A DNA stretch of 63,985 bases, counting the filler, from Stramenopiles sp. TOSAG23-6 (taxonomy: Eukaryota), in NCBI GenBank assembly GCA_900128565.1. It is 5 parts of 5 records of this genome, joined end to end, with 100 filler letters (N's around TTAATTAATTAA, not from the genome) between each part and the next. Parts side by side here need not be neighbours in the genome. Positions count along the whole stretch, not along the records: positions 1 to 12,900 come from LT636184.1; positions 13,001 to 25,871 come from LT636185.1; positions 25,972 to 38,838 come from LT636186.1; positions 38,939 to 51,747 come from LT636187.1; positions 51,848 to 63,985 come from LT636214.1. One strand, given 5' to 3'. Positions 9,874 to 63,985 of this stretch are shown piece after piece (the stretch's first letter is position 1; the number at the start of each line of letters is the position of its first letter). The notes under the pieces were generated by a model. It did not search any database. It was given only the letters and a program-made list of their open reading frames with translations, and had not been told where the DNA came from. The translations under genes were made by a program, and so were the position numbers.

Positions 9874-12814
9874 ATGGGGAATATATTTCATTCGTCTACA
9901 AGTAAGCTTGAAGCTACTGCATCCTCATGGAGAAAGCACTATGACAAGGTAGAGCTAAATACGCTGATGCGTATATTCAAAAGTTTGACTTTAATTTCTG
10001 GTAACAGGAACGTACAGAGTGTAGAAAAAAAACTTTTCTTGCAATTATTTTCCTCTGGCACATCTATTCTTCCAGGACTGTATGCAGATAGATTATTTCA
10101 TTGTTTCGATCAAGATGGTAATGGTCGTATTGACTTCAAAGAATTCCTTGCTGGTCTAGCGGTACTTTGTCGGGGTTCACGAAAGGAAAAAGCTGAGTTT
10201 ATCTTTAAAATTTATGACTTGGATGGAAATGGAAAAGTGACTGGCAAAGAACTTCGATCGATGCTTTTTCATGTGCCTAAATCTGTGCTTGAGTTTAAGG
10301 CATGCGATGTGGTGAATCTGTCCACATCATCAGATATATCACACAGTACAGCAGATGCCCTAGCTCAATCTAATACTACTGATGAAATTTCAGCCAACTA
10401 CACTACAATGAATTTTGATACAACGGACACTTCTCATCAAAAACAACCCCAAACGAATATATCGTATACTGAGTCTATGAATAATCCGTCTGTTGAGGTT
10501 GACGTCGACAATCGAACTTCACGTGCTCAGGCAGTAGACATGGTATGTCATAATGCAGGTATTGACGTCGACACTGAATTAGACTTTAAAGATTTTATAG
10601 ATTTTTTGGATAAAACACCTCAATTAGAAGAATTTTGGCGAGAAATTGGGAAAAGCTGTTTGAAGCTTCGTCTACGACATTCAAATTCTACCGAGAATAC
10701 ACCAATGCGAAAATCTTCGAGGCCTCGTTTTAGACGACATAGCTCCGCATCATCTCGAAAAAGAAGTTCAATACAATCACTACGCCGTCATAGTGTAAGT
10801 TCCACGTCATCTGGAAAAAGAATTGTACAAAAATCATTACGTCGTCATAGTATAGGCTCCACCTCATCTCGAAAAAGAAGTTCAATACAATCATTACACC
10901 GTCATAGTGTTCTATCGAATACATTTTCTGATAGTGAAGACTTAGTGGCACATGATTTCGATTTTGGAGGTGTCAATTCTACATTTTATGAATCATCATC
11001 AGTTGATAGTTGTAGAATCAATTCAGATGAAGATTTTCGTCAGAGTAGTAAGTATAATCCTAGCAAATATAGAAACAAATCTATTCATTTAAATAATGAA
11101 AGTCCAATTGTCCAAGGAATAAAAAGTCTCCATGTTGATTTAAATGATAATACTAACCCTAACCCTAACCCTGATAGTCTCCATGTTGATTTAAATAATG
11201 ATAATACTTTATTATCCCCACGTAGTTATAATAGATATAGTAATATTTCTGATGATGACTATCTTTCAAATTCAACAACACGAAATAATAATTTTCGTGT
11301 ATCTATAAATTCTATAAAACGGCCACAAGCAATCAATACTGCATATGAGGAGAAAAGAAGGGACCATGCATTAGATGGTATTGATTTACTTCAATATGGT
11401 TTGGATAATAACCCTACCCCTACATCATGTGATAATGGTGTAATTCATTCACTATCTGGTACAAAGCATCCTATTGATGTAAATAAACAATTCATTGCTG
11501 TTGATGGAGATGAAACATTACAGAATACCTTATCTGTATTTCCTCCAATTTTAGGCGACGATACTACAAATAATACTATAAATAATAATACAAATAATGA
11601 TAAAAATAATACTATAAATAATAATACAAATAATGATGAAAATGATACTACAAATAATAACACTAATAGTTGGAATTATATGGAAGGTCGATTATGGAAA
11701 AGATCAAGGAAAGCTTTAAAATTTAATATTGATGTGTGGCACGAACGGTGGTATGTACGTTGTTCATGAATCCTTTCAATTCTATTGTTTTGTACCAAAT
11801 TTCGTAGCTAACATTTTTTTGTAAGAAAAATATTTTTCACAATCAATGTTCTTCACCATAATATGCTCTACGAATATCGGACCACGTCAGACAAACTTCC
11901 GAGTAAAGTTTACTTTTTAGATACTTGCATCATTACACGAGAGCCTGGATATTTTAGAGGCCCAAAACTTGCTAGTTCAGTTCGTGGTTTTAGTCTTAGT
12001 CCACGAAAACATCAAAAATTATCTTCATCTGCCAGAGGTTTTCGAACAGGCTCTTCTTTGATGAAAAGTATTTCAAAGTCAAAACGTGAAAAATTGTCTA
12101 CTCGAGAGTCAAAAACATCAAAAACATCAAAGTCATTAACTTTGGGTTCAAAAAAACCTCCGATACCTCCATCAAGTATACCTTTGAGCCGGTCTTTTTA
12201 CAAAAGCCGAAGAAGGTCTGTTACAGAACCAGACTTTAACTGTGTAAAAACCAATTATGAGGAATCATATAATGATCAAAATGAAATATCAATGGGAACT
12301 TTTGAAATTCTATGGGGTATTCGTATTAAACGTGAAGGCGGTGATAGTAATGATGTATGTTTTATTTTTTTTAATTTTTAATTTTTTTTCGTACGAAGTT
12401 TTGTACCTAACGATTTTTTTTTGAAATATTTTTCCAAAATACATGTAGAAAGAGGAGGATTTTGTCGGACTATATTTGCAACTTCAGAAGAAGTTAGAGA
12501 TGAATGGTGGAGTGCTTTGAGAATTGCTGCACATACTATACCTTTTGATGAAAAGTACGAATTGTTAAATTGTATTGGTCGTGTACGTTTACATCATGAA
12601 TTTTTTCTTTTGTACGAAATTTTGTACCTAACGATTTTGTTTTGAAATATTTTTTTACAATACTTGGTCGTTTTGCTTCAGTGTTTCTGTGTAAACGTAG
12701 GAAAATAAATGATGAGTTTGATGGGGCTAGTAATAATAATTGTTTGAATGTATCCCCATCCAAAGAACGATATTCTGATGATAAATATTATGCGGTTAAA
12801 GTTATAAGTGTCAT
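9874..12814 (+). CDS. CDPK7-like protein: EF-hands + PH domain + protein kinase (3' partial); exons 9874-11754, 11848-12354, 12445-12582, 12666-12814
   Basis: DQDGNGRIDFKEF and DLDGNGKVTGKEL EF-hands; PH motifs EGRLWKR..W..RWYVL and EEVRDEWWSAL; kinase IGRGRFASV...YAVKVI after intron removal. Confidence 0.8.
11755..11847 (+). mobile_element. Introner-family intron (GT...AT), diverged
   Basis: at|GTACGT...TAGCTAAC...CAATCAAT|gtt restores PH motif RWYVL. Confidence 0.8.
12355..12444 (+). mobile_element. Introner-family intron (GT...AT)
   Basis: at|GTATGT...TTCGTACGAA...TACCTAAC...AAAATACAT|gta; frame restored. Confidence 0.85.
12583..12665 (+). mobile_element. Introner-family intron (GT...TT)
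   Basis: Removal gives kinase glycine loop IGR|GRFASV. Confidence 0.85.
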
Positions 12815-12900
12815 GTATGTTTTATTTTTTTTCAATTTCGAAGTTTTTTTTTCGTACGAAATTTTGTACCTAACGATTTTTTTTTGAAATATTTTTCCAA
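12815..12900 (+). mobile_element. Introner-family intron, truncated by contig end
   Basis: at|GTATGT, full core motif, runs into gap. Confidence 0.85.
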
Positions 12901-13000
12901 NNNNNNNNNNNNNNNNNNNNNNNNNNNNNNNNNNNNNNNNNNNNTTAATTAATTAANNNNNNNNNNNNNNNNNNNNNNNNNNNNNNNNNNNNNNNNNNNN
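12901..13000. other. Artificial contig linker
   Basis: 100 nt of N around TTAATTAATTAA (stops in all frames). Confidence 0.95.
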
Positions 13001-13055
13001 AATTTTGTACCTAACAAATTTTAGTTTTTTTTTGAAATATTTTTCCAAAATACAT
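13001..13055 (+). mobile_element. Introner-family intron, 3' part (...AT)
   Basis: TTTTGTACCTAAC...CCAAAATACAT at contig start. Confidence 0.85.
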
Positions 13056-15507
13056 ATATCAGGAACTGGAGAGGAAAATGTCAAATGGAAAAGTAAGTAC
13101 GAAAGGGCAAAACATACTTTAGAATCTATCTATACCGAAATTTTAGAGTCATATCAAAAAGGTATTCGCAAGCAAATAAGTGGACACGATCTTCATTTAT
13201 ATCTTCGAAATTATAGAAATACAAAACATAGAAAACTACTTCATCGATTTATCAGTAGAGCTAGACCTTTACATTCCGGTTCCGAATTATACGTTGCACT
13301 CGATATAAACCATAGTAATTTAATAACAAAACACGAATTTGTACATACTTTGTTACTACCACCTGCAAAACGCGAGTTAATCAAGATTTTTCAAGCCATA
13401 GATCTTGATAGTGATGGTTGTATTAAAGCCCGAGATATTCACAATTTTTTACATTCAAATGAAAATCATGAAATGGCTGAAACATTGAAGAAACTGATTT
13501 ATGCTAGTCGACGTTTTTTTGTGGCAACGAATAGTTCCCATGAAATGCTCAAATCTCTCGATGTAGATCATGTACGTTTTCATCATTCATTTCAATTTAT
13601 AATTTATATTTTTTTTTCATACGAAATGTTATACCTAACGATTTTTTTCTGAAATATTGTTTCACCGTACATGACAACAAAGTCACACTTCACGAATTTA
13701 TACATTGCTTACACTCAACCTTACAAAAACGATTAGCGAAGAAACAAAATGATGATGTATGTTTTATTTTTTTTTCAAATTCGTTTTTTTTTCCGTACGA
13801 AATTTTGTACCTAACGATTTTTTTTTGAAATATTTTTTCACAATACATAACGCCATGAAAGAAGAAAAAAATATATCATCGAAGTTACAATCCCTTTTTC
13901 GTTATTATTGCTCATATGGCGAAAGATTCGATTTTAGTCTTGGAATGTCAAATTGGTGTAAAATGATTCGTGATATTGACATGGCATCACCAAACCAATT
14001 AATAAAAAATAGATTTATAAATAATAAACCTCACGGTGGAATTGCTTTAGAAGATCTTGGGCTTACTTTCTACGCTGCTTTGTCTTTCCAAAAGAAAACA
14101 GACAAGAGCTGCATCGAAAAAAAGAAGCTAAATTATGATAGTTTCCTGTATGCCTTGCGATATATTGCATGCAAACGATTTCCAGATATCCCACCAAAGA
14201 GTGCAACAAAAAGAATGTTACACCAATATATCATTCCATTATACGATGAAGCTGTTATATATTCTAATTCAGTATATACTAAATTAGAAATTGAAGGTCG
14301 CAATGACTTACGACAATGTAAGGAAGAATTTGAACCAAAGGTGAGAAAGTTTTTTCTTCGTCATAATCAAACCTTGAATAAAATATTTCGAAAATATGCC
14401 TACATTGGAAACGAATCGAATGATATCCATAGGAGAATTGTGGGCAAGGCAGGATGGGACTCAAAAAAACGAAATCCTGGAATACTAGCATGGAAAGACT
14501 TTTCTAAATTCGCATCGGATTTTGGTATTATTCCAACAATTATTCCTCGTGATGTTTGCAAGCAGACTTTTCTCCTGCTTTGTGCGTATGAAGCAAATGG
14601 GTCCCAAATTAACTTTGATATCGAGGAACTTAAAAATATTAGATCAATGACGTATGGCACATTTATATTGTGTTTAGCAATGCTTTGCATGGTTCGATTT
14701 CGTGCGATTGACTATAGTGATCAATGCCCAACACCAATAACAAAAATTCAGTTATTCTTTTTCAAGATGAAATGCCCGGCAGAACTTTTAAACAAAGCAG
14801 AACATCATTTGTTTATGTCAGTAGCTCGAGACGTAAGTAAAACATTGCGTTCAGTTTCTGAAGATTCAGATTTTCAAAAGAAACTTTTACCCATGAAACA
14901 AGTGGAAGAAGTCAAAACTCTTCTTCTTGATGGACCAATGAAAGCACAAACTCAAAAACAAGAAAGTAAAACGAAAAAGTTACAATATCAATGTGCTGAT
15001 ACAAAAAGAAGGTGTGAGCTGGAGGTACGTAAGTTCCGCAGAATGCAACAGGAAATAAACGAACGTGCATCTAGGAAAATGATATCAAAGAAGCTTGCGC
15101 TAAACAGTAATGTTCAACATCAAATGAAACAAGCAGATGAGAAGTTCGATTTCGATGATTGGACAGAAAAGTTAGAGATACTAAATACTCTGCAACAACG
15201 TGCATTCAAAGCGGTAATTGAAAAGGATAAAAGTGAAGCGAACACATTTAGTCACACAGAAAAAGATCAGATAGAAAAAGCACTAAAGTTGAGAGAATTG
15301 AAAGCACACCTGAAACGAGAGATTAACAAGGTAGTCGAATCGAGTCAACCAAATTCGCCAGAGTCTGTATTGAAGAAACCAAATGGTAACAATTTTTCTG
15401 GCGATACAAATGTTTCTCTGCAAGATGCATTCAGAAAAGCGAAAGCTGAAGCTTTCAGAAAAGCAAAAATTGCAACAAAACACAAACCCCTTCGACATTA
15501 TAATTGA
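13056..15507 (+). CDS. Multi-EF-hand protein (5' partial); exons 13056-13571, 13673-13756, 13849-15507
   Basis: DINHSNLITKHEF, DLDSDGCI, and DVDH|DNKVTLHEF EF-hand restored by splicing. Confidence 0.8.
13572..13672 (+). mobile_element. Introner-family intron (GT...AT)
   Basis: Removal restores EF-hand DVDHDNKVTLHEF exactly. Confidence 0.9.
13757..13848 (+). mobile_element. Introner-family intron (GT...AT)
   Basis: at|GTATGT...CACAATACAT|aac; frame restored. Confidence 0.85.
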
Positions 15508-17607: not shown

Positions 17608-18858
17608 ATGTCAAAACCACCACCACCAAACTATACACCTCCACCTCTATCACCCAATTCGAAGAAATTGATGCGATATCACCTTAGACTTCAAGCGGAA
17701 CTCAAACGTGAACACGGGGACGAAGATTTGGCAAAGGAAATGGGTAAAACAAGTACCACAACATCATTTCTCCCAGGAAAAATTCAACCTATACCAAAAT
17801 TTCTAAAAAAGAGTAACATGAACGCAATCGCGGAAGATCCAGTTGATATCCCAAGGCGACGTTCAACACTAGCAACACATCAATTTAGGAGAAAAATAGA
17901 ACAGAGTCGTTACACAGATTTATTTAACACTCAATCGACCAAAGACCCCACTAAAGTTGCATCTATCGCAGCAAATGCAGCATTTTTAGCAGCCAAAAGT
18001 GCAAATACTTCACAAAGTAATGCTTTGAAGTCATATTGGACTTCTACCAATATTGCATTTCAAAATATTAAAGTTGAGTTAAAGGAAGCACGAAGTACTG
18101 TACTACTAAATGATGAAGAAGTGGAAACCTTACTATTGAATGATGAAGAACTTAGCAAACGCATAGAAAATAATTTGGAAATTTCTGAAGAAAATCTTTC
18201 TGAAAGTGTTGGAAATCGAATGTCATTGAAAGAATTGATTATTCTACAACAGAAAAAGCATGTACGTTTTATGTTTTTTTAAATTCGATTTTTTTTCGTA
18301 CGAAATTTTGTACCTAATGATTTTTGTTTCAAATATTTTTCCAAAATACATAGAAGCGTCTGCCAGAGTTTGGAACAAAATTTGTCAATTGCCTTGAAAG
18401 ATTCTGAAGAAAGCGGTCGGAAGCTCAGGGAAATGTATCAACTTTTGTCTTTAGCTGTAAGTAGAGCAGAGAATGCTGAAAGGATGACTATTAAGTACAA
18501 AAATGAAGCAGAATTTTTTTCGCATGAAGTAAATCGATGGAAACGAGCACTTCAAACTGTGGATGAGACGGTATTGAATATTGCATTGGAAAATAATAGT
18601 GTAAAGCAAAACGAGCGGATCTACCCTACTGATTTAATGAAAAAATATTTGTCAAGTATTAAAAATAACATTAAAAATAACAAAGAAACAATAGAAAAAA
18701 TACATGAAGATGAAGTTGTAGAAGATTCACCGGACTCTTTGAAGCATAAATCTAGATTGGGTAGATTGAGAATGAAAAAGAATTTGAAGATAAATACCGA
18801 AATGGGTAATAAATTTGACACTGGTGTTGGTGAAAATAAATGTGGAATTGAACACTAG
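17608..18858 (+). CDS. Hypothetical coiled-coil protein; exons 17608-18261, 18352-18858
   Basis: Two ORFs joined in frame by removing the repeat. Confidence 0.65.
18262..18351 (+). mobile_element. Introner-family intron (GT...AT)
   Basis: at|GTACGT...AAAATACAT|aga; the adjacent AG (18352-53) is out of frame, an in-frame CAG at 18364-66 is an alternative acceptor. Confidence 0.8.
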
Positions 18859-19017: not shown

Positions 19018-21596
19018 TTAGAAGACATACATCTGCTGCCACGCCATTTCTCCATGATGTGCATATGTAGCATTTGAATATTTCACAGTGTGAAGGATTC
19101 TTCCAGTAACATCTGGTGGCGCTTCTAGACCGTCTTTAGGGCTACCCCACAAGCACGGTGGCTGAAGTATAAATCCCTTTTCAGAAAACTTTGGATTAAG
19201 GGATGGGTTTCCATAAACAGGTTTTTCTTCACACAACAACGTAGCATTAGTTTCATTACATACTTCTACGCCTTTTGTGTTTTCACTGTAGACCACAGTT
19301 GGAGGACAGAGGTATAAGCTTATACTAAGGCAACTTGGCGCATGACAATGAAAATGGGCTGCAGATAGTCTTGTCGTCTCCACACCTGGTGAAAATGTTC
19401 CAGTGATTTTATGTACCCATATACCTTCCTCTGTTAAAGAACAACCTTCAATACCTTGGCTACACTTTGGTACATCATATTCTACGGGAGATGCGATACC
19501 CCATGTCACTCTCCGGAGTTGTGTATGATATGACTTATCATATGGTTGTACCCAAAACCTAAACTTTAAGTTATATTCTAATGGTTGTGTTGTCCAGGGA
19601 ATATCTTGATCTGCATCTAAAAGAGAAAACATGTGGTGACAAGCAGCTTGTCCACCCGTGTAAGACCGTATATCACAAGTAGGATTTTTCATCGATAGTA
19701 AATCTGATCGTGGCTTTGGAGTGCATTTATTTGGAAATACTATGGTTCCACTACCCACATCAATATTAGGCTGTTTCGAACTTGGTGTATACTTGAGCTC
19801 TCCTTTTGCCGAACCAAAAGGCGGTGGTTTTCCTAGGCAAACACATGTTCCAGCTACTCCTTTTGAATTAACTGGTAGTATCGATATTGTAGAAGGTGTT
19901 TTCATTTTATGATAGCTCAACTTAGCCGTGGAACCAATTGCATTAATAAAGGGTAGTGTAGCTAATAAAGATGATGAAATATCAAAGGTAAAATGATCTT
20001 TTGTTATGCCTTTCATTGCTCGCGTCAGAACAACTGTACACAATCCCTTGTTTACACTTGTTGAAACAACTGTAATGGACGATTGGAGTAAAATACCTGG
20101 ATTTTGATCATGTAATTTTCTTTCTGTGACAACAAAGCCATTAGAATTGTTTATATCATTACTATTTGGTTCAACAATTATGGTCCATGGTGCATCACCC
20201 ATTCTAGATGCGCCAAAACCAACACCAAACCAGACACTAGATGGTCCAGTAAGTGTTATTTGAACAGCTTTGTCGTTTTTAGTTGGATCAATAAAAACTG
20301 ACAAATTTACAAGAGAGGTCGAGTTACCCAAGAATAATTCTTTACCACCGTTAGCGACAAATCCACAGGACGGGGACACTGTATTACTAAAATTATACTT
20401 GACTTGTTTCATTCTAAAGTAAACATGGTATATAATTGAAGTTTCTGAAGTTTTCTCTTCTATTGTGATACTGCATCCAAATGGTTTTGTTACGTCAAAT
20501 CCACTCGAATTTCGAAATTCTTTTGTATTGGCTTTTGAATCACCATTTAGTATATGTTTTGCAGCAGAAAAGCATTCAGTTGGAGTATTAATTACAGTAC
20601 ATCCTTTATTATTCACACAAGTATTGTGAAAAAATATTTCAAAAAAAAATTCGTTAGGTACGAAATTTCGTATGAAAAAAAATTGAAAAAAAAATTCATA
20701 TAAAACATACAAGAAGGACCAGCTGACAAAAGTAAATATTTTCCATGAATCACTTTAGAAATACGTGTAGTCACAGGACATTCAAGTAACCCAGAATATA
20801 AAGCATCTGGGCCTGTTGTTGGAGCCAGATTATTCCGTGGTACTGGACCAGACACAAATGGAGCCGGACCTGAAATAGGCATTTTATCTCTTTCCCAAGT
20901 ATCAATTTGCATTGGTGTAATTTGGAATGAGTGCGGACTTTCAATCACTTGGACAAAACCAGGAGCATATCCATGATATGATAATCGATATTCACCACCA
21001 TTAGCACCACCAAAGTTTTGTTTTGTAGGTAAAGTTGATGGTATCTCATCCTCATTCTTCTCAACTATCCACGCGTGTTTCTCACTTGGTAATCCGTGTC
21101 CACCCATTCTACTGGATTTTATTTCTTGTAATCGTGGATCTTCAGGACTATCAAATTCCGCAAATTTGAATTCATTTTTTGAACCAATCATTACACTCTC
21201 AAAATGGTGATTATAAGCTACAGTTATAGGTACACTCACGTCTGGTTCTCCGTCGAAACCTCTTCGGACCTGGTCCATCTCAAAGCCAATGACTGCCATC
21301 CCCTTGCCAGCATATCGGGCCACAATTTCATCTGGAAGGGAAACAGGAGCTAAACCTTTCCAAAATACTTGCGAATATAAGGACGTGATATTTGGAGAAT
21401 ATATATCAAAATATTCTGCTCCTTTAGGGTATTCACTGAAGGACGTTGGAAATTTACCCGTTGAAGGTGCATGAGGAGTTTGACTCCGCAAGTAAGGTCC
21501 ATTAAGGTTAGGTGCACTAATTGGCTTGAACACATCACCTGAATTCACTTGAGACACGAAGAATCCCAATGTACATAATATAATGCTCATCTGCAT
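19018..21596 (-). CDS. Secreted copper type II monooxygenase-like protein with DOMON-like insert; exons 21596-20711, 20618-19018
   Basis: Signal peptide; YNHH, HFHCH and HGEM metal-ligand-like motifs; WFGVGFGA..M DOMON-like motif. Confidence 0.65.
20619..20710 (-). mobile_element. Introner-family intron (GT...TT; TT duplicated)
   Basis: tt|GTATGT...CACAATACTT|gt joins the two ORFs in frame. Confidence 0.85.
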
Positions 21597-25811: not shown

Positions 25812-25871
25812 ATGTATTGTGAAAAAATAGTACAAGATTTTTGTTATTAGGTACAAAATTTCGTACGAAAA
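25812..25871 (-). mobile_element. Introner-family intron, 3' part (...AT), truncated by contig end
   Basis: Core TTTCGTACGAAATTTTGTACCTAA and CACAATACAT on minus strand. Confidence 0.85.
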
Positions 25872-25971: not shown

Positions 25972-25975
25972 ATTA

Positions 25976-28062: not shown

Positions 28063-28155
28063 GTGTATTTTGGAAAAATATTTCAAAAAAAAATCGTTAG
28101 GTACAAAATTGCGTACGAAAAAAAAACTTCGAATTTGAAAAAAAATAAAACATAC
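28063..28155 (-). mobile_element. Introner-family copy at a probable chimeric junction
   Basis: Full consensus, but flanks CC/AC and phases are incompatible; joins two unrelated genes. Confidence 0.85.
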
Positions 28156-51668: not shown

Positions 51669-51747
51669 ATGTTTTTGGAAAAATATTTCATAAAAAAATC
51701 GNTANGGTNCAAAATTTCGTACGAAAATAAATTCGAAATTGAAAAAA
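51669..51747 (-). mobile_element. Introner-family intron, truncated by contig end (...AT)
   Basis: Core motif (with Ns) and CCAAAAACAT on minus strand. Confidence 0.8.
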
Positions 51748-53941: not shown

Positions 53942-56595
53942 TTACGTTTTCTTTTTTTGCAAGTAAGGATGCATGCAAATTTTGGACACATCTGGTCTAA
54001 GTCCAGCACTATGAGCTAAACAACTTCGAATAAAATCTTTTGCTTCTTCACTCACTTTACTTGGTGCTTTCTCTGGAAACTTCACCTCACGAGCATTCAA
54101 CATTGTTCTCTCCGATACTAAACGCTCTTGAGTCATGCCTTCGCCAAATGGTCGAACGCCAAATAGTAATTGAAAGAAAATAACTCCCACAGACCATACA
54201 TCAACTTTCGATGAAATTCGTGGTTTATTTGATTCGCTTACTCTAAAACATTCAGGTGGGAGGTACCAGTATGTCCCTGCACCTTGCGAAGTTAATTCAA
54301 TTGATCCACCTCCAGCATCTGATCGATTGCTATCATCAACAATTTTCGAGAGGCCAAAATCTGTTATTTTAATGTTTGGTGCTGTATCAAAAATAATATT
54401 ACCTGGCTTTAAATCATAATGTATAATTGGACCATTCCCATGATTTCCACAATTGAGATAATGTAGAGCTGATAATACTTGAATAATTATAACACGTGCT
54501 TCCTTCTCTGGAAAAAATTTCCGTTCTTTCAGAACAAGATCAAGATCCGGTCCAGAACAATACTCCAAAACAGTAGCAAATGAGTGAACGTCAATTTCAA
54601 AAACATCAAATAGGCGCACAACTCTATCGTGTCTGAGAGACTTGTGGATTGCATATTCTCGAGTGGCATGTTTAGTATAGCTGTGTTTTCTTTCTTCACT
54701 CCAACTGGGATTTAACTGATGAACTTTACAAGCTACTTCGCGGTACTGAATAAGATCAAAAGCTAACCAAACTTCCGAGAAGCCACCTTTACCTAATAGC
54801 TTCGTTAAAAGATATCGATTGTGTAGGACCGGATGTTTAACGAATCGAGATGAATCCTCGTCACGACATCTTTTTAATTCGCGAATGTGTAGCTTCTTTT
54901 CACTCTCTAAATGCTTTCGTTTCTCGCCAACTTCTTCTTCTTTTTTTTTTTGTAATAACAGACCAACGCGGACGAGCTCTTCTCGTTCGGTTTGTTTTAA
55001 AACACTGATGTGGTCCGTCATAGCGTTGGTATTTGATGCATTAAATTCATCCTTTTTTTTCTTGGCTTCTGTTTTGGCCTTCCGGGCATCTTTGGCGACT
55101 TCACGACGTTCACGTTCCAGCGCTTCTCTTTTACTTATAAGTGCGGCTTGTTCCAAATACAAATCTTTTAGTTGGTATCCATCTCTCCACACTTCATGAA
55201 CATTATGTGGACTCGTTCGTTGAACGACAATATGTCCAAGACGTAAACTATTAGACTTCAGTTGCTGTCTCGAATCGCGTTTATCAAGTTGGGCTTTTTT
55301 TCTAAGGATATTTTCAAAGACTTTTGATGCAGCAGTCTGCCTAGCAAGAAAAGTCTTTTTTTCATCTTCAACTTTATTTTCCATTTCTTGAAGACGAGTT
55401 TGAAGAAATACACAAGTATCTTGAGATTCCTTGAGCTGTAACTCTAAAGAATGTATTTTGGAAAAATATTTTACAAAAAAAATTGTTAGGTACAAAATTG
55501 CGTACGAAAAATAAATTCGAAATTGAAAAACAAATAAAAACATACATTAATTCGTTCATCGGTTTGAGATATTGCAGATCCGGAACTAGAAGTAGTGGTA
55601 ATTGAACGGTTTGTTGATGAAGTATCTGATGATGCTTTACTCACACTATCAAATAAAATATTTCCTGAATCATTCGATGATATAGCTAACGAAGCTTCCG
55701 TACGAAGTAGTTGGCGTTTTGCTCTCCCCGTTGGCGTAGAAGAACGAGAAGTTTTTCTTGGTGGCATTGGTGTAGATACAGGTGCCGTCTTATCTAAAAC
55801 AGAAGTGGTTTGTATACTCTTTTTGGTTGAACCTGCACCACCTCTAGAGACGTTGCCGCCACCAAAATATGAAGCAATCGATTTCGTCTTGGTTGCTGAG
55901 GCATGTCTGCCACTTCTACTATTACTATTAGTACTATTTCTAGAAGAACCACTTGAGGGGGGCGTCAAAAGTGAGACTGGCATGGGTGAGTCAGGGCGGA
56001 AGCCTAGACTTCCATTTCCAAGACTACGGATGCTTTTCACTCTATCTCTTGAATCACCTTTTTTACTGGCTCTATCTTTTCCGCTAANAATTGGAAGTTT
56101 CGATTTTGAAGCTTTATTGTCGCGGCGAGAGTGAACGGGACTCTGAAAAAATATATTTTCTGTACTATTACTTCCTAAACTTACTTCTGAGGATATGCTG
56201 TTTCGCGAAATGTGTGACTTTTTACACCGCTTTGTCCTAGAATCATTCCGTGGAGGGGCTACACGTTTCTTCCGCGGCACACTCTTTCTTCGTGAACTTG
56301 ATGATGCGCTTAAGTTACTGGGGCTAACTCTATCTTTATTGTAGGCGCTACTAGAGCGTAATGGTGTACATTGTGCAGATGATGGTTGTGAACTTGGGAT
56401 ATCACCATTCATTTCAGTATCTGCTGTGGCAATACTGGAAACGTCGGGAGAGAGAGTGTCACTGATTGCGCGAACTCGAGATAACGCTCCAGTCATTCTT
56501 GCTTCAAGAAGTTTCTCTTTCTGTGGATTATTAATTAGAAATGACGCCTCAACAGAGTTTGAGCTGGAGTGTATTGGAGTCATTACCATTATCAA
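53942..56595 (-). CDS. TLK: Tousled-like kinase; exons 56595-55546, 55450-53942
   Basis: HIRELKR..DEDSSRF, LLGKGGFSEV, VACKVHQLN, IIHYDLKPGN, ELTSQGAGTYWYLPPECF. Confidence 0.95.
55451..55545 (-). mobile_element. Introner-family intron (GT...AT)
   Basis: aat|GTATGT...AAAATACAT|tct joins ERIN|SLELQ. Confidence 0.85.
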
Positions 56596-56891: not shown

Positions 56892-57778
56892 TCATAAGAA
56901 AATGTACCACACGATGAAGCATACACTCAATACAACACATATGATGGCAAAATTCTCTCTAAAAAGTTGCCACCACATCGATGAACGCAAATTTTTTGTT
57001 TGAACATTTATAATAAAAAAATATTCGTTTAGTAAAAACAATTGTTAGGTACAAAATTTCGTATGAAAAAAAACATGTAGGTAAAAAATCATGATGAAAA
57101 CGTACACTAAAACCTTTCGAAGACGTGTTTAAAAACTCACTTTTTCTACAGAGTTGGTCTAGATCATGTATTTTGGAAAAATATTTCAAAAAAAAACGTT
57201 AGGTACAAAATTTCGTACGAAAAAAAACATCGAATTTGAAAAAAAATAAAACATACATCACCCCGTCCAAGTGCTTTGTCAATATTCTTTACAACACTTT
57301 CCTTCACTTTGAATAGAGTTCCTTTCACTTGTCCGACTCTGTCAACACTGGTATTAGCACTGTAAAATGCTAATATTTTTTTCATGAATGGCCCAAACTC
57401 TGCGGTCATCCCGTATTCAGATAGGTCCGTCAAAGATAGATCACCAAATTGTGACTTGAACTCAGCTTGTAACTTTTCCAATAACTTATAGCTCACTGAA
57501 CTATTTACAGACGAATGCGTGAGACAAACGTACGCAAGAGAATCTCTCACTAAAACATGGAAAACATACTCACCCGTTGGTGGGCATGAATATGATTTAC
57601 GAGCATTTCTATTACTGTCAACCTTCTTTAAAAGCTTCTTGCTAGATTTTTCAAGCTCCCGAGATGCCTCGTCGATTAAGTATTCAGCTAAAACAATTTG
57701 TCCCGACGCAACACAACAGTAAGCGAAGCGCCCAGAGGAAGAACCAACACTTCTTGGGTTCTCTTCGTCAGATTTCAT
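56892..57778 (-). CDS. VAMP7: VAMP7-like longin R-SNARE; exons 57778-57257, 57165-57106, 57005-56892
   Basis: Longin domain; NIDKALGRGD|DLDQL..KSE.L...S.GF; MWW plus C-terminal TM after splicing. Confidence 0.85.
57006..57105 (-). mobile_element. Introner-family intron (GT...AT), diverged 3' TIR
   Basis: agt|GTACGT...TATAAAT|gtt restores FSVQTKNLRSSMWW and TM. Confidence 0.8.
57166..57256 (-). mobile_element. Introner-family intron (GT...AT)
   Basis: Restores SNARE heptad RGDDLDQL. Confidence 0.9.
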
Positions 57779-59277: not shown

Positions 59278-59378
59278 AAACATAGTAATTTCATTACTTT
59301 TGTAAAATCCTTATTATTTTATCTGTTATAAATAATGATATTATTAAATCATGTTTTCGAACTTCTACAACAATGATA

Positions 59379-62300
59379 TCAAGGCGATGCTTCCGGGCCT
59401 TTGACTTGCTTGTACACATGTCCACCTTTCTTTCTTAACATATTTATTTCTGTCTTTAGCACATCAATTTCTCTTGCCTGAAGACGTACCACCTGCACTA
59501 ATCGTTTTCGCTCTGCTATAGCTTGTGCAGATTCGACACCCGAAGAACTACTTCCACTCTCGCCACTAGTTGCTACTTCCATTCCAGAAAGTTTGGTGCT
59601 TAATTTTGCTATATTTTCAAGAATTTCTGTGTTTTTTTGCGTTAAACCTAACAATTCTTCTTGTTTTGATTTCACATTTCGTGATAATTTTCGCAATACT
59701 TGTGCATTTTCCACTGCTTGAAATTTCAAAGTTTGCTGCAAGTCCAAGACAGCCTGAGATGTGTACATATTATCTAATGAATCTAGATTTATTTTACGGC
59801 CAAACTTGAGCCTCTGTAAAGCGTCGCATTTTTCCTCTTGTGCTTTGATACTCCTCTCTTTCTTTCGATTATCTTTAATCAGCCGTCTTTGTCTTTTCTT
59901 TAAATCTTTGAAAACCTGTAATTGTCTCTTCTTCTCCTTTATATGGCTTACAATAGTATTACGAAGATCTCCAAGTTTTTGTTTCGAGAAAACGAGACAA
60001 TTATCTATATTATTAGGTAGTTTCAGCACACCATTATCGGCATCTGTTTCAGGTCTTTCAAGATTTTTTATTTGAGAAATTCTCATTGCAACAACAACTT
60101 GAAGTTGGTTAGCAACCTTCTGTTTCTCTGACATAAGCGTTGATATTTTCTTATCAGCAGCTTCTAACTCTTTATCCAATTGGGCTTCTCTGCCACTATG
60201 CTTTCTTACAGCTTTTTCTAAATCTGTGCAAGTTTTTTTACAAACAGAAATGAGCTCTTCGCTATCTAATCTTTTCTCGCGTAACTCTTTAACATTGTCA
60301 TAAAGCTCCTGCTTACATCCAACTGGGCAAACTTCTTCTTCATCATCTTCGCTTTCGCTTTCTTCTTCTTCGGATGATGAAGAGTACTCTTCCTCGCTGT
60401 TATCCTCGTCACCGTCATTTCTCTTTTTTGCGCGTTTTATCTTCCTCAAATATATCTTTTCGAGTGCAGTGTAGTGCGGGTTTGAGTCACCCCCGACAAG
60501 ATCTTGGAATTCTTTAAAAATTTCTTCTTTTTTCTTGCAGAGTATCACCATCTCAGCTGATTTGGTGGTATACAAATCATTGCTCTTGGTGTACTCTTCT
60601 CGGGCTGAAATCTTTTCAGTATTTATATTTTCAATGGTTTCTGCAATTGCATTATCTTTTTCTTGAAATAGACGTAGCATATCTAATTCTTGATATAAAA
60701 CGAGTAATTTTATCTCGGCAGACTTAGTTATTCGGTCTAACTGCAATTTCTCTAATCGCAAACTGTGTAGCCGAGTATCAAATTTCTTCTGTAATTCTTC
60801 ATTATTAGTGATGAGCTGAGATTTTTCATATTCTAAAATACAATTTCGTCTTTTAATTGTTTGTATTTCAGCCTGAGATTTTTCGCCATCAGTCAGGATA
60901 ACAAAAGCAGGGTCATCTTCAGGAAGAGATTTATGAATTGTCGAATGAAACGAGGCTAATTTTAGAGCTTCCTTCTCATATTCCTCATCCATATTGGACT
61001 GGGCGGTGACTTTATTATCCTTTGGTGCTTCCTTTCTTTCAGAGAGATTTTTTGTTTTCATTTCAAAGTCAAGGAGTTCATCCATAGTATATTTTTCACG
61101 TTCATCTGGCCATTCACCAGGGATTTTTATGGGATCTATTATTTCAACAACATTTCCAAGTTCTACATTAATTGCTCTGATTCGGGCATTTTGCCCAGTA
61201 ATGCGTTTAATAATTTGAAGTTTTAAATCCCTGAGTTTACTGAACTTATCATTGAATTCCATTTTGGAATGATACAGGCTGAGAGCTAACTTTTGAACTT
61301 CCCTTTGTTTTGATTTGTGATTGAGTTGTTTAGACTTTGGAACAACATAATCTTCAGACATTTTTAGTTTAAAGTCCCCGATGTTTTTGATTGCATCTTC
61401 AATAGCAGCTTTGTGTTTCGGGTCAACGTCATTTGCCGATGGCTTTTGAGACTCGAGTTTTGCAAGTCGTTTCTGCCTTTCTTTGCGCATTGCTTTTCTG
61501 TCCTCCTTTTCTTCGTCTTGACTTTGAGAATTTGAAACATTGTCATAGTTGAGATGTAAATTTTTCTCTTTGTTAAATTTCGAAATAGAATTTAATGATT
61601 CGGCATTTCTCGCATTAGTTGATAAAGAATGACTTGATAATAGTCTTTTACCACCATCATCTCTTTTACGCACTCGGAAAGATGATACACTTTCTTCTGA
61701 CTCGAATGCTTTCATTGGAATACACTCGAAGATGATGTCATCAAGAAACGCCGCTTTCAACTTTTTAAGTTGTATTTCACTTCGAGCACTCTCCCAAGCG
61801 AGCTCCTTTTCCACCTCTTCGCAAGCTACAACGCCAAGATTCTTGAAATATTGTGTCATTTCAGGGTCAACATCCATTTCGTCTTTACTCAACCGCATTG
61901 CAGGTTGTGATGTATCATTCTCTTCTTGGAGCTTCGCAAAATCCTCCTGAAGTTGTTTAATATTTTGACGGACTATATTTTTCTTTGCTTCGGCACGTCT
62001 TCGTTTATTGTCCTCTTCTGTTTTTAGTTTATCATCTTCAATTGTATAATGGGATTCCAAAACAATATCTTCTGGAGCTTCAATTTCAGAAATTGTTTTG
62101 TTTATTGCGGGGTCGTCCCCAGTAACCGATGATGTACATGTATTGTGAAATTGTATATTTTTCAATTTATTTTTGTTAGGTACGAAATTTCGTACAAAAA
62201 ATAAATAAATTAGAAATTAAAAAAAAATAAACGTACATGTGACAAAACTGGCATTAGCATTTTTTCCCTTACCAGAGCCTATAGACACAATCTCTTCACC

Positions 62301-63930
62301 TTGCAACTGTTGCACGAAAAACATCTCATCTTCACCAGTGCTTAAGAGAAAATTGTCGTCAAAGGACGTAGCAACACTAGTAACACTACCAAGACTTGCA
62401 TCATGCAACCTCGAGCAAATAAACTTTTTCGCGATGGATCCTGGGCCACTCGGACCAGAAGACGAACGAACATGAACAGTTCCATCAGCAGAACCTGATA
62501 ATAATAGCTTACGAGATGAAGAATACCGTAAGACACTTAGTGCACTATCATGTGATGGGTGAGATGCTTTGTGAATAGCCGTTTTGTTGACTAATTGGCA
62601 TTCCAAAAACATACCAGCATCAGGTCCTTGCATAGTAGCGATACAATTATTATTAGAACCCGAGCAGTATATGGATAAACCAGCTATTTCTGGGGTTTTA
62701 TTTGCGCGAATTTCATTGGCAGCTTCTTCTAATGCAGCTGTCTTTTCTTCATCAGTTCGTGTATCTGCACCACCTCCTGCCTCGGCAGCTTCTGCTGAGA
62801 GTTTTGCAGAGAGTTTGTCGAAATCAATATTATCAGGTCGCGAGTACTGCCATTTTCGAAGTCGTTTACATTCATCAGTAATGTCAAAAGTATCTACTTT
62901 AGAAGTATCTCTAGGTTGTGGTACAGGTAATTCTAGAACCGCAGAGTTTTTCAATGAAATAAGGATTCGAGTGTCATCCGCGCGAAATGAAAAGCTTAAA
63001 GGTTCTTCGTCTAGTTTTACAAATCCAATGGGTTCATATAATTGTCTTAAACCACCAAATCCACCTTGTTCGACCTCAAAAAACCATACAGTTTTTTCTT
63101 CTGCGGCTGCAGTAGCTAATACACCTCCTTTGTTTGAGAACTGGATCAATGTTACTGCAGTGCTATGTGGACGCATCGCGTGTGATAGTTTCCATTCACT
63201 TTTACCTCGCAAAAGCATTCGAACAACTCCATTTTCGAATCCCACAACAACAGTACGACCATTGGAATCGACAGTATTTGGTGCCCAATGGACTACTGTG
63301 CCATTCATTACTTTTTTTGAACTTTTTGTACTTTCTTCTTTTCCATTTTCTCCCTTTGTCAGTGATGTTTCCGTGGAGAAAAATGAAGCTTGGAATACGG
63401 GATGCTTATCTACATAGTCCCAACACTGAACTGCGCCATCCTTGCCACATGTAACTGCAAAATGATCCACAGGAGAAGCATCCATACAATTTATACCTTT
63501 ACCATGAAAGCGTTGCAGGCAAATTGATTTCACATCTTTTGCACTTCTTGGGATTTTATCATCAGGTACATTCAAACGCCAAAGTCCACCGCCACCATCT
63601 TGAATGATCCAATGACTTTTCCCACGTACCATTTGCTTCACAGAGACATTTTTACCAACGAGAATTTCATATGATGGACTTAGCTCAAATTGAGGCTCTT
63701 CATCAGTCGTTTCTGCATTAGATAGAGCTAGAAAATTCCACCAACGAATATAACCGTCCTCTCCGGCAGAAACAATCCACATATCATCTCCATCACCTTC
63801 AATATTTCCATCAATTGTGATAAAAGTAATCGCACCATTATGAGGTAAATTTCCTCCAGGGGTAAACACTTCTAATTTTATGAAATTTCCTTCCCATATT
63901 AGTAAAGACCCACGTTCAGTAGAAGATAGA
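59379..63930 (-). CDS. CFAP44: Cilia/flagella-associated protein 44 (WDR52), 5' partial; exons 63930-62237, 62137-59379
   Basis: GSLLIWEGNFIK, WD40 repeats, YTIEDDKLKTE, IGDFKLK.SEDYVVP, CPVGC...LY....LREKRLD, EI..LRKKGGH. Confidence 0.9.
62138..62236 (-). mobile_element. Introner-family intron (GT...AT)
   Basis: at|GTACGT...CACAATACAT|gt joins two long ORFs. Confidence 0.85.
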
Positions 63931-63985
63931 ATGTATTTTGGAAAAATATTTCAAAAAAAAAACTAAAATTTGTTAGGTACAAAAT
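63931..63985 (-). mobile_element. Introner-family intron, 3' part (...AT), cut by window end
   Basis: TTTTGTACCTAAC...CCAAAATACAT on minus strand. Confidence 0.85.

What the first reader, a model, noticed from the sequence alone, without database searches (positions are those of the whole stretch)
11755..63985. Pervasive introner family whose introns end mostly in non-AG dinucleotides (GT-AT, GT-TT, GT-GT, GT-AC)
Seen: 37 intronic sites, nearly all sharing one ~83-109 nt sequence, all in the sense orientation of their host gene. They carry a spliceosome-like donor (mostly GTAYGT) and a branch-like TACCTAAC about 30-50 nt from the end. Conserved motifs are restored only by removing GT...ATAC+2 nt: EF-hand DVDH|DNKVTLHEF, kinase IGR|GRF, Beclin GMVAFL, PhzF QC|SARGG and Y|NFYSRYF, GTDC1 GCFP, SNARE RGD|DLD. 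Hand tally of 36 visible 3' ends: AT 26, TT 4, AG 3, AC 2, GT 1. Nearby AGs usually give frameshifts (12447, 18352, 32660). Known: introners exist in several eukaryotes and normally yield GT/GC-AG introns; transposon-derived non-canonical introns are known in a few lineages (Fritillaria, Amoebophrya). Inference: this organism splices most of its introns, including ones in essential genes (RPB3, POLA2, TLK), with an AG-independent 3' site. I do not recognise this system as described.
Basis: partly seen in the sequence, partly recalled or inferred. Interest (0 to 1): 0.95.

Follow-up and report, generated by a model that had tools for sequence, protein, structure and literature searches.

The report
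Transposon-born introns that end without AG
A marine protist carries a short mobile element that lands inside genes and appears to be spliced out as an intron ending in AT, TT, GT or AC instead of the near-universal AG, which public gene models for this organism have missed.

Summary
A profile search finds 37 copies of one 83-109 nt element. It starts GTAYGT, carries CTAAC a median 36 nt from its end, and ends ATAC plus two bases.

I set 25 complete window copies and one independent metagenome copy by that rule. They end AT 19, TT 3, AC 2, GT 1, AG 1. Removing them joins reading frames of at least 40 codons in 22 of 26. Shifting the 3' end by 1-2 nt gives 1-3 of 26.

Homologue profiles for PhzF and Beclin favour the non-AG junctions over every AG alternative. 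One poly(A) metatranscriptome contig skips exactly 35997-36098, passing an AG 5 nt upstream.

This looks like a 2-bp target-site duplication. GT-AT therefore cannot be told from AT-AC.

The name a public source gives the near-identical proteins points to a MAST-3 stramenopile. Both public models checked mis-splice or read through the element.

The closest described cases are Fritillaria, Amoebophrya and canonical introners. RNA evidence is thin and no snRNA or splicing factor could be inspected.

The parts
11755..11847 (+). Introner copy, GTACGT...ATCAAT (variant 3' end). Both the flank and the intron end are AT.
   Evidence: Joins 635 and 177 open codons. No in-frame AG between -45 and +60 nt.
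12355..12444 (+). Introner copy, GT..AT, repeat AT/AT.
   Evidence: Joins 181 and 66 codons. No in-frame AG alternative.
12583..12665 (+). Introner copy, GT..TT, imperfect repeat GT/TT.
   Evidence: Joins 67 and 73 codons. The host was not recognised as a kinase by Pfam.
12815..12900 (+). 5' part of a copy, cut by a contig end.
   Evidence: nhmmer E 1.7e-16. The N linker follows.
13001..13055 (+). 3' part of a copy at a contig start, ends ATACAT.
13572..13672 (+). Introner copy, GT..AT (GTACAT end), in a gene with EF-hands.
   Evidence: Joins 190 and 51 codons with no in-frame AG. An EF-hand lies in the upstream exon.
13757..13848 (+). Introner copy, GT..AT.
   Evidence: Joins 71 and 552 codons.
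18262..18351 (+). Introner copy, GT..AT.
   Evidence: Joins 222 and 168 codons.
20619..20710 (-). Introner copy, GT..TT, with a matching TT/TT repeat.
   Evidence: Joins 299 and 532 codons with no in-frame AG.
21729..21821 (-). Introner copy, GT..AT, donor GTATTT. Only 9 codons follow before a stop.
   Evidence: Read as a short last exon; this is not proven.
22256..22361 (-). Introner copy, GT..AT, imperfect repeat TT/AT, between two Aha1_N exons.
   Evidence: Joins 308 and 168 codons. Pfam.
24839..24947 (+). Introner copy in Beclin, donor GTTTGT, end ATACAT.
   Evidence: Scores 363.8 bits, the best of 1183 splice variants. The in-frame AG alternative used by the public model scores 352.3. Pfam BARA positions 1-113 and 110-179 meet at the junction.
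25813..25871 (-). 3' part of a copy, cut by a contig end, ends ATACAT.
28063..28155 (-). Introner copy, GT..AC; frame unresolved.
   Evidence: In frame only with a 53-codon upstream frame. With the 283-codon Na/H-exchanger frame, 4 codons follow before a stop.
32244..32346 (+). Introner copy, GT..AT, in the QTMAN/GTDC1-like gene.
   Evidence: Joins 304 and 78 codons with no in-frame AG. Pfam.
32563..32665 (+). Introner copy, GT..AT (AGACAT end), same gene.
   Evidence: Joins 80 and 57 codons.
33269..33416 (+). Two partial tandem copies without a donor, between convergent genes. Not introns.
   Evidence: (family D13).
33505..33592 (-). Introner copy in PhzF/PBLD, GT..GT, with a matching GT/GT repeat.
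   Evidence: Profile score 362.7 against 330.9 for the nearest AG. The public model reads through it.
33725..33816 (-). Introner copy in PhzF/PBLD, GT..AT.
   Evidence: Profile score 362.7 against 237.9 and 236.5 for the AG alternatives. One unspliced RNA-library contig covers its 5' junction (record 20).
35999..36100 (+). Introner copy, GTAGGT...GTACAT, in a GCFC-like gene. The only copy with an RNA joint.
   Evidence: Poly(A) run X8, record 29, joins 35996 to 36099 with 64 and 87 nt on the two sides. This equals removal of 35999-36100 because of a 4-nt repeat. The AG at 36094-36095 is bypassed.
36280..36379 (+). Introner copy, GT..AT, same gene.
   Evidence: Joins 82 and 450 codons.
38326..38419 (-). 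Introner copy in POLA2, GT..TT, with a matching TT/TT repeat.
   Evidence: Both exons match PDB POLA2 in order. An in-frame AG 21 nt upstream is not excluded.
38781..38838 (-). 3' part of a copy, cut by a contig end, ends ATACAT.
41646..41744 (+). Introner copy with a degenerate 3' end, read as GT..TT (99 nt).
   Evidence: Only lengths divisible by 3 keep the frame, and both nearby AGs are out of frame. The read-through is itself open, so retention is not excluded.
45735..45835 (+). Introner copy, donor GTAAAT, end ACTCAT.
   Evidence: Joins 260 and 260 codons with no in-frame AG.
49049..49138 (+). Introner copy, GT..AT, in an amino-acid transporter gene.
   Evidence: Joins 269 and 52 codons. 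Pfam Aa_trans.
49281..49373 (+). Introner copy ending ATACAG. The one canonical GT..AG copy.
49450..49544 (+). Introner copy, GT..AC, donor GTATTT.
   Evidence: Joins 31 and 75 codons in phase 2, with no in-frame AG.
49715..49903 (+). Compound copy with a duplicated 5' part, read as GT..AT (189 nt).
   Evidence: The frame fits an end at 49903.
50028..50191 (+). Compound copy with two 3' halves, each ending ACAG. Unresolved.
   Evidence: The AG at 50189 is out of frame with the conserved downstream exon. Only an end at 50191 (TG) fits.
51673..51747 (-). Copy cut by a contig end, with a variant 3' end.
55451..55545 (-). Introner copy, GT..AT, just upstream of a protein-kinase exon.
   Evidence: Joins 180 and 502 codons. 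Pkinase.
57006..57105 (-). Introner copy with a degenerate 3' end (ATAAAT), read as GT..AT.
   Evidence: The frame fits.
57166..57256 (-). Introner copy, GT..AT, in a longin-SNARE gene.
   Evidence: Joins 179 and 68 codons. Longin domain.
62138..62236 (-). Introner copy, GT..AT, in a WD40 / CFAP43-like gene.
   Evidence: Joins 571 and 918 codons. The nearest in-frame AG is 60 nt downstream, and there is no AG at all within +/-45 nt.
63932..63985 (-). 3' part of a copy, cut by the window end.

Best explanation
A short non-autonomous DNA element, like a miniature transposon, has spread through the genes of a marine stramenopile. The name that a public source gives the near-identical proteins points to MAST-3.

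The element's ends read 5'-GTAYG...ATAC-3'. It appears to insert with a 2-bp target-site duplication, usually AT and often in an ATG context.

In the sense orientation its first six bases are a consensus 5' splice site. Inside it carries a branch-site consensus (TACCTAAC, that is CTAAC) followed by a U-rich stretch that usually holds no AG.

The major spliceosome cuts at the GT. It forms the lariat at CTAAC. It ligates the exons two bases after ATAC, at the end of the duplicated target copy. The mRNA then equals the gene as it was before insertion.

Because the duplicated target is AT, TT or GT rather than AG, the 3' splice site is mostly CAU and not YAG. The lineage must therefore tolerate non-AG exon ligation.

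Shown:
- the repeat family
- the direct repeat
- sense-only orientation
- the exact length that must be removed
- that an AG cannot be used in at least 9 copies (no in-frame AG) and is disfavoured in 2 more (Beclin by profile score, 35999-36100 by the RNA contig)
- one spliced RNA contig

Inferred:
- transposition as the source of the repeat
- removal by the spliceosome
- the register GT..NN rather than NN..AC
- relaxed second-step fidelity
For: Family: 37 loci.

Splice signals in the 26 aligned copies:
- All 26 start with GT. Donors are GTATGT in 11 and GTACGT in 8.
- All 26 carry CTAAC or CTAAT.
- The distance from branch to 3' end has a median of 36 nt.
- There is no AG between branch and 3' end in 19 of 26.

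Direct repeat:
- In 21 of 26 copies the two bases before GT equal the last two intron bases. That is 18 AT, 2 TT and 1 GT.
- Three of the seven non-AT ends still match their flank. This favours duplication over a fixed element end.

Frame:
- 22 of 26 copies join frames of at least 40 codons. Offsets of +/-1 or +/-2 nt give 1-3 of 26.
- 25 of 26 copies are in the sense orientation.

Homology:
- PhzF: rule-based splice 362.7 bits; AG alternatives 237.9, 236.5 and 330.9; unspliced 236.7.
- Beclin: rule-based splice 363.8 bits, the best of 1183 variants; in-frame AG alternative 352.3.
- Homologues P0122 and P0123 read YNRAMVAFL and YNRAMVAIL with no insert.
- POLA2 exons on either side of the element match PDB chains in order.

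RNA: the poly(A) run X8 contig joins 35996 to 36099 and passes the AG at 36094-36095.

Independent copy: metagenome contig L001 carries AT|GTATGT...ATACAT|, in frame.

Precedent:
- Yeast lacking Prp18p uses non-YAG 3' sites. [quoted passage not shown]
- In Micromonas introners, one splice site lies in the element and the other forms in the duplicated target (PMC11282704, passages).
Against: - Only one RNA contig (151 nt, depth 2) shows a joint. It would look the same if it came from a strain that never had the insertion.
- Another RNA-library contig (X7, record 20) runs unspliced from exon into the copy at 33816.
- Element sequence is abundant in all three RNA libraries (table 2). That could be pre-mRNA, retained introns or DNA carry-over.
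- Three copies do not clearly fit:
  - 21729-21821: only 9 codons follow before a stop.
  - 28063-28155: in frame only with the shorter, 53-codon upstream frame.
  - 50028-50191: fits only a TG end.
- At the 40-codon threshold four copies fail: 21729-21821, 33505-33592 (32 codons to the natural stop), 49281-49373 and 49450-49544 (short exons).
- For 16 of the 25 non-AG copies, an in-frame AG exists 9-60 nt downstream or 18-21 nt upstream. It was excluded only for Beclin and for 35999-36100.
- No snRNA, U2AF, Prp18, Slu7 or Prp8 gene could be examined. No genome is held and the window holds no Rfam match.
- The terminal inverted repeat is only about 4-9 nt. No transposase was seen.
Confidence: 0.68

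Rival explanations
1. Same element and same mRNA, but the cuts lie two bases to the left. The intron starts in the upstream repeat copy (mostly AT) and ends at the constant ATAC. It is then an AT-AC intron spliced by the major spliceosome.
For: The product is identical whenever the repeat is perfect, which is 21 of 26 copies. Among these, 17 of the 18 AT/AT copies read as AT..AC; 11755 reads as AT..CA. AC is the more constant terminus: ATAC, GTAC or AGAC in 24 of 26. From memory, an A at the first intron base and a C at the last are a compatible pair in yeast and human U2-type AT-AC introns.
Against: The 5' site would then read ATGTAY, out of register with the well-kept GTAYGT that matches the U1 and U6 pairing consensus. 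The TT/TT and GT/GT copies would start with T or G, breaking the A-C pairing. The conserved ATAC is explained equally well as the mirror of the 5' GTAT (transposon ends).
Confidence: 0.18
2. The spliceosome uses ordinary AG acceptors nearby. The proteins simply carry small insertions or deletions, as the public gene models assume.
For: An in-frame AG exists for 16 of the 25 non-AG copies. The public Beclin model uses one.
Against: Nine copies have no in-frame AG between -45 and +60 nt. Profile scores fall by 11 to 126 bits with AG sites in Beclin and PhzF. The one RNA joint passes an AG 5 nt upstream and ignores an in-frame AG 15 nt downstream.
Confidence: 0.05
3. The element is removed from RNA by a mechanism other than the spliceosome, guided by pairing of the intron ends. 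This is what is proposed for euglenid, hemistasiid and Amoebophrya non-conventional introns.
For: Direct repeats sit at the junctions. A weak GUAU/AUAC end helix appears in 3 of 6 minimum-energy folds.
Against: RNAalifold finds no conserved pair in 26 copies. Five of six copies fold no better than shuffles, with z from -0.2 to -0.9. A consensus 5' site, branch site and U tract are all present, and those systems lack them (PMC12621601 sections 3 and 5; PMC7789003 passages).
Confidence: 0.05
4. The element is cut out of DNA in the expressed nucleus, like a ciliate internal eliminated sequence, or is simply absent in many strains. It would then never need splicing.
For: The element looks like a transposon with a target duplication. 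The single spliced contig equals an empty site.
Against: Cutting at inverted ends would not depend on gene orientation, yet 25 of 26 copies are sense. DNA contigs of an independent seawater metagenome carry exon-element junctions at 33794, 36047 and 38353 (records 6-8). No germline/soma split is known to me in stramenopiles.
Confidence: 0.03

Closest known systems
Canonical introners (Micromonas, Aureococcus, dinoflagellates and others)
   Same: A short non-autonomous element in many unrelated genes, with a target-site duplication and short inverted ends. One splice site lies in the element and the other forms in the duplicated target (PMC11282704 passages; PMC9860276 passages).
   Different: Those give GT/GC-AG introns with duplications of 3-9 bp. 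Here the duplication is 2 bp and usually AT, so the second site is not AG. The 2022 survey text has no 'MAST' or 'stramenopile', and its one 'non-canonical' refers to mis-splicing.
Fritillaria (larvacean tunicate) non-canonical introns
   Same: 3' AT is the commonest end in F. pellucida (44%) and F. borealis (34%), with AC second in F. borealis. A YAY triplet forms the last three bases and often stands before the 5' site. A U-rich tract is kept. Removal is by a modified U2 spliceosome (PMC13326754, section 21). Transposon origin is stated in the review. Here 20 of 26 copies end in YAY (CAT 18, CAC 2).
   Different: The main Fritillaria classes start with AG (AG/AC, AG/AT). Here all 26 start with GT inside a full GTAYGT. 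It is an animal, not a stramenopile, and has many families rather than one dominant family. The U2AF duplication seen there could not be checked here.
Amoebophrya introner elements
   Same: A marine protist with repeated introns carrying direct repeats of 3-5 nt across the junctions, plus inverted repeats. Most introns are non-canonical (PMC7789003 passages).
   Different: Those have 8-20 nt inverted repeats that form hairpins, and no consensus termini or splice motifs. Here a consensus 5' site and branch site are present and there is no stable fold.
Yeast prp18-delta spliceosomes
   Same: A U2-type spliceosome ligates at non-YAG sites. CAU and UAU are the best non-G sites, and upstream poly(U) helps (PMC10711555 passages). 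The commonest end here is CAU after a U-rich stretch.
   Different: That is a laboratory mutant with low-level alternative use. Here it would be the normal site for most introns in the window. Whether Prp18 is changed here is unknown.
U12-type and U2-type AT-AC introns
   Same: AT-AC is one valid reading of most copies. Rare GT-AT termini are on record for U12-type introns; I saw only the search listing of PMC1557818.
   Different: No copy has the U12-type 5' motif ATCC at positions +3 to +6. The branch motif lies about 36 nt from the end, not 10-20 nt. The consensus values are recalled.

Membership tests
Introner (transposon-derived intron family) | Many near-identical copies at unrelated positions in different genes | tested here: met
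   37 loci in 52 kb, in Beclin, PhzF, POLA2, QTMAN, SNARE, transporter and other genes. One more copy lies in an independent metagenome contig.
Introner (transposon-derived intron family) | Target-site duplication at the junctions | tested here: met
   A 2-nt direct repeat in 21 of 26 copies, including TT/TT twice and GT/GT once.
Introner (transposon-derived intron family) | Terminal inverted repeats | tested here: inconclusive
   Only GTAT...ATAC plus a few A/T pairs. No conserved pairing was found by RNAalifold.
Introner (transposon-derived intron family) | Presence/absence differences between strains or species (recent mobility) | not tested
   No genome and no close relative is held. The spliced contig could be an empty site, but this cannot be told.
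U2-type spliceosomal intron | 5' splice site GTRNGT | tested here: met
   26 of 26 start with GT. 19 of 26 read GTAYGT.
U2-type spliceosomal intron | Branch consensus CTRAY followed by a pyrimidine-rich stretch | tested here: met
   CTAAC or CTAAT in 26 of 26, followed by T runs. Median 36 nt to the 3' end.
U2-type spliceosomal intron | 3' end YAG | tested here: not met
   1 of 26 ends CAG. The others end CAT 18, CTT 3, CAC 2, CGT 1, AAT 1.
U2-type spliceosomal intron | Removal from RNA as a lariat, dependent on U1/U2/U5/U6 | not testable with these tools
   One spliced contig only. No snRNA in the window and no genome.
U12-type intron | 5' motif RTATCCTT, and branch TCCTTAAC 10-20 nt from the end (consensus recalled) | tested here: not met
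   0 of 26 carry ATCC at +3 to +6. The branch motif is ACCTAAC, a median 36 nt from the end.
Fritillaria-type non-canonical intron | Last three bases YAY, with 3' AT or AC | tested here: met
   20 of 26. The feature is taken from PMC13326754, section 21.
Fritillaria-type non-canonical intron | Non-GT 5' end (AG in the main classes) | tested here: not met
   All 26 start with GT.
Euglenid / hemistasiid / Amoebophrya non-conventional intron | Stable pairing that brings the intron ends together, and no U1-type 5' site | tested here: not met
   0 consensus pairs. z-scores run from -0.2 to -0.9 in 5 of 6 folds. A consensus 5' site is present.
Internal eliminated sequence (DNA excision) | Removal independent of gene orientation, and absence from expressed-nucleus DNA | tested here: inconclusive
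   25 of 26 are sense, which argues against it. Metagenome DNA contigs carry the junctions. No single-nucleus comparison is possible.

The most novel reading that the evidence does not exclude
A whole lineage of abundant marine stramenopiles has a major spliceosome whose exon-ligation step no longer needs AG. The 3' site would be set by position after the branch and U tract, with CAU preferred. This would be a natural counterpart of yeast lacking Prp18 fidelity. The tolerance would have let a transposon with a 2-bp AT target duplication become the dominant source of introns, with on the order of ten thousand copies if the window's density holds genome-wide. Published proteomes and 'pseudogene' calls for these organisms would then be widely corrupted.
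Probability: 0.5. Interest if true: 0.85.

Novelty: new variant of a known kind. Interest (0 to 1): 0.78.

Why it matters
[quoted passage not shown] It would be the cleanest of the three. The 5' site and branch site are textbook, and only the 3' dinucleotide is free. That isolates one question: how does the second catalytic step choose its site without AG? The answer can be sought by comparing Prp18, Slu7, Prp8, Prp22 and U2AF in this lineage.

**Intron origin.** It also shows how a target duplication that lacks AG can still make a working intron.

**Annotation.** There is a practical consequence. Both public gene models I checked for this organism are wrong at these elements. PhzF is read through and mis-spliced. 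Beclin carries six extra residues. Gene counts, completeness scores, functional inventories and pseudogene calls for these uncultured protists may be biased.

Tried and rejected
- **Whole genome.** None is held. I could not count copies genome-wide or search for snRNAs and splicing factors.
- **Rfam on the window.** No match.
- **Read laying.** It could be used once, on 25972-38838 only. Its tables list 15 of 238 joints and 32 of about 14,300 pieces, so further spliced contigs may exist unseen. X8 record 30 stops 3 nt before the donor at 36280, with 57 nt not shown. I do not count it.
- **Copy number from depth.** The element bins are thousands of times deeper than exons, but the tool warns that this is not a copy number, so I draw none from it.
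- **Transcript-derived proteins.** A search with the 59-aa exon between two copies found nothing. The PhzF and Beclin searches returned no near-identical protein other than the public gene models.
- **Pattern scans.** The metagenome collection gave one contig. The viral collection gave none.
- **Structure-guided removal.** Rejected.
- **Diplonemid or tunicate origin.** Considered early. Dropped when the near-identical public proteins carried a MAST-3-like name.
- **My first frame test.** It chose the phase from the longest upstream frame and wrongly failed 24874 and 49450. The Beclin donor is GTTTGT at 24839, and 49450 is in phase 2.
- **Telling GT..NN from NN..AC by protein conservation.** Not possible at the copies with unequal repeats. 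Both registers give acceptable residues, for example IGRGRF against IGLGRF.
- **Literature.** Searches found no description of these introns in MAST-3. Text finds in three MAST genome papers also found none. Supplementary files were not consulted and may bear on gene-structure statements in PMC5778133.

Full report
**What is there**

The window is eukaryotic, 29-39% G+C, with long open frames and little spacer. It is not one stretch of chromosome. Four blocks of 44 N, TTAATTAATTAA and 44 N, at 12901, 25872, 38839 and 51748, separate pieces of 12871, 12867 and 12809 bases. I read this as contigs joined in order of length. Five of the eight inner contig ends fall inside copies of the repeat.

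The repeat finder shows a family of about 90 nt on both strands. A profile built from 14 clean copies gives 39 nhmmer hits, with E-values from 1e-19 to 9e-3. Two hits are reverse-strand echoes of an internal palindrome, which leaves 37 loci. None lies before 11755.

**Anatomy**

- The element starts GTAYGT. Among 26 aligned copies the donors are GTATGT in 11 and GTACGT in 8, with six other GT-hexamers in the remaining seven.
- After a T-rich stretch comes CGTACGAAATTTYGTACCTAAC. Its first 16 bases are a palindrome. Its end is a branch-site consensus: CTAAC or CTAAT in 26 of 26.
- A U-rich tail follows, with no AG in 19 of 26.
- The element ends ATAC (24 of 26 have ATAC, GTAC or AGAC) plus two more bases.
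- The distance from branch to 3' end has a median of 36 nt.

**Where the boundaries are**

I fixed the 5' end at the GT and the 3' end two bases after ATAC. This was done for 25 complete copies in the window and for one copy in an independent metagenome contig (L001).

- Termini: GT-AT 19, GT-TT 3, GT-AC 2, GT-GT 1, GT-AG 1.
- Three more copies with degenerate or compound 3' parts fit GT-TT (41646-41744) and GT-AT (57006-57105 and 49715-49903).
- One compound copy (50028-50191) fits only a TG end and stays unresolved.
- Four copies cut at their 5' side end ATACAT.

**Is the rule more than a pattern?**

- With the rule-based length, frames of at least 40 codons are joined on both sides in 22 of 26. 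With the 3' end moved by 1 or 2 nt either way, this falls to 1-3 of 26.
- Every copy has stops when read through, after 4 to 63 codons.
- By the length of flanking open frames, 25 of 26 copies lie in the sense orientation of their host gene.

**Could ordinary AG sites be used instead?**

- For 9 of the 25 non-AG copies there is no in-frame AG from 45 nt upstream to 60 nt downstream of the rule-based end.
- For the other 16 an in-frame AG exists. It would add or delete 3-20 codons.
- I tested this where homologues allow.
  - **PhzF/PBLD**, profile of 59 homologues: the rule-based splice of both introns scores 362.7 bits. The AG alternatives score 237.9, 236.5 and 330.9. The unspliced gene scores 236.7.
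  - **Beclin**, profile of 119 homologues: the rule-based splice scores 363.8 bits, the best of 1183 donor/acceptor combinations. The in-frame AG 18 nt upstream gives 352.3 and inserts six residues into a motif that homologues P0122 and P0123 read as YNRAMVAFL and YNRAMVAIL.
- Pfam coordinates of the Beclin BARA domain meet at the junction: 1-113 upstream and 110-179 downstream.
- The two POLA2 exons match PDB chains in order: residues 396-445, then 481-581 of 8g99_B. An in-frame AG 21 nt upstream is not excluded there.
- The profiles fix the length removed. They cannot place the cut to better than a few bases.

**RNA**

Eight public runs hold parts of the stretch. Three are seawater metatranscriptomes. 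I could lay runs once, on 25972-38838.

- One contig of the poly(A) run X8 (record 29, 151 nt, depth 2, one mismatch) lies on 35933-35996 and 36099-36185, contiguous in the record. It therefore skips 35997-36098.
- A 4-nt repeat (ATGT) stands at both junctions. The joint is thus the same as removal of 35999-36100, the rule-based intron.
- It passes an AG at 36094-36095 and ignores an in-frame AG 15 nt downstream.

Against this:
- It is a single contig. It would look the same if it came from a strain without the insertion.
- Contig 20 of run X7 runs unspliced from the PhzF exon into the first 24 nt of the copy at 33816.
- Element sequence is abundant in all three RNA libraries.
- DNA contigs of an independent metagenome (X3, records 6-8) carry exon-element junctions.

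In 21 of 26 copies the two bases before the GT equal the last two bases of the intron: AT 18, TT 2, GT 1. Three of the seven non-AT ends match their flank. That is unlikely if the last two bases were a fixed part of the element. The simplest reading is a 2-bp target-site duplication. The element proper is then GTAYG...ATAC, whose ends mirror each other (GTAT/ATAC).

Two things follow.

1. The design is that of known introners. The element brings one splice site, and the other forms in the duplicated target (PMC11282704, passages). Here the target is AT, not something that contains AG.
2. The termini are not determined by the mRNA. GT-AT, TG-CA and AT-AC give the same product. I prefer GT..NN. 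GTAYGT is in register with the canonical 5' site, and the TT and GT copies would otherwise start with T or G. AT-AC remains a live alternative. Only RNA from the seven copies with unequal repeats, or lariat ends, can settle it.

**Mechanism**

- The consensus 5' site, the CTAAC branch, the U tract and the sense-only orientation point to the major spliceosome.
- Pairing of the intron ends is weak. RNAalifold finds no conserved pair in 26 copies. Five of six copies fold no better than shuffled sequence. This sets the elements apart from euglenid, hemistasiid and Amoebophrya introns (PMC12621601, sections 3 and 5; PMC7789003, passages).
- The commonest 3' triplet is CAT (18 of 26), which is YAG with the G replaced.
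- In yeast without Prp18p the spliceosome uses non-YAG sites. CAU and UAU are the most efficient non-G sites, and upstream poly(U) helps (PMC10711555, passages).
- I therefore infer relaxed second-step fidelity in this lineage. This is inference. No splicing factor or snRNA could be examined.

**Organism and annotation**

The best protein matches to the PhzF and Beclin exons are public gene models named GSMAST32.ASY1.ANO1.1596.1 and .872.1. They are identical to the window over long stretches. The name suggests a MAST-3 marine stramenopile. I did not test the placement by phylogeny.

Both models are wrong at the elements. The PhzF model reads through the copy at 33592-33505 and mis-splices the other copy, losing NFYSRYFAPWVG. 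The Beclin model uses the upstream AG and gains IFFSPY.

**Comparison with what is known**

Closest are:
- canonical introners: same design, but GT/GC-AG;
- Fritillaria: 3' AT and AC ends, a YAY last triplet, a modified U2 system, but mostly AG at the 5' end (PMC13326754, section 21);
- Amoebophrya: direct and inverted repeats, no consensus signals.

The 5' motif and the branch distance do not fit U12-type introns.

I found no description of these introns in MAST-3. Text finds were:
- PMC5778133: 'splice' 0 times, 'non-canonical' 0 times;
- PMC8163842: 'intron' 0 times;
- PMC12614181: 'intron' 0 times;
- PMC9860276: 'MAST' 0 times.

Supplements were not seen.

**Verdict**

It is a new variant of a known kind, and worth following up with RNA data and a survey of the splicing machinery.

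Noticed in passing
12901-13000, 25872-25971, 38839-38938, 51748-51847: Blocks of 44 N, TTAATTAATTAA and 44 N separate pieces of 12871, 12867 and 12809 bases. The window looks like five contigs joined in order of length. Five of the eight inner contig ends lie inside introner copies, so the repeat breaks the assembly.
   Followed up: partly
33505-34506 (-) and 23970-25155 (+): The public gene models for this organism (P0001, P0121) read through or mis-splice the elements. The PhzF model loses a conserved motif and ends in translated intron. The Beclin model gains six residues.
   Followed up: yes
6712-6730 and 24853-24868: Short internal runs of the telomere-like repeat CCCTAA. One is in a spacer. 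The other is inside the 5' part of the Beclin introner copy. L001 also has AACCCTAA-like runs near 2270-2330.
   Followed up: no
1-1620: Tandem 108-nt (36-residue) repeats that look like Sel1/TPR-type repeats, in two blocks. A run of ten G near 1320 coincides with a frame change between two ORFs and may be an assembly error.
   Followed up: no
33263-33416: Two partial element copies 72 nt apart, without a donor, lying between the 3' ends of two convergent genes. These are the only copies outside a reading frame.
   Followed up: partly
49715-49903 and 50028-50191: Compound copies. One has a duplicated 5' part. The other has two 3' halves that each end ACAG. In the second, the AG is out of frame with the conserved downstream transporter exon.
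   Followed up: partly
21824-23285 (-): Aha1_N domains occur on both sides of the copy at 22256-22361. This is either a tandem-domain protein or two adjacent genes.
   Followed up: no
40869-41009 and 11536-11685: An 18-nt tandem repeat (six copies) and a 12-nt repeat (eight copies) lie inside open frames and would encode short peptide repeats.
   Followed up: no
27354-27655: Repeats of 108-114 nt inside a 706-residue cysteine-rich ORF with a weak teneurin-EGF match. It lies directly downstream of a Na/H-exchanger ORF. Whether the two are one gene is unclear, and this bears on the unresolved copy at 28063-28155.
   Followed up: partly
insertion sites of the 26 copies: The first exon base after the intron is G in about two thirds of the copies, so the target often reads ATG (sometimes CATG). 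This hints at a target preference wider than the duplicated AT.
   Followed up: no
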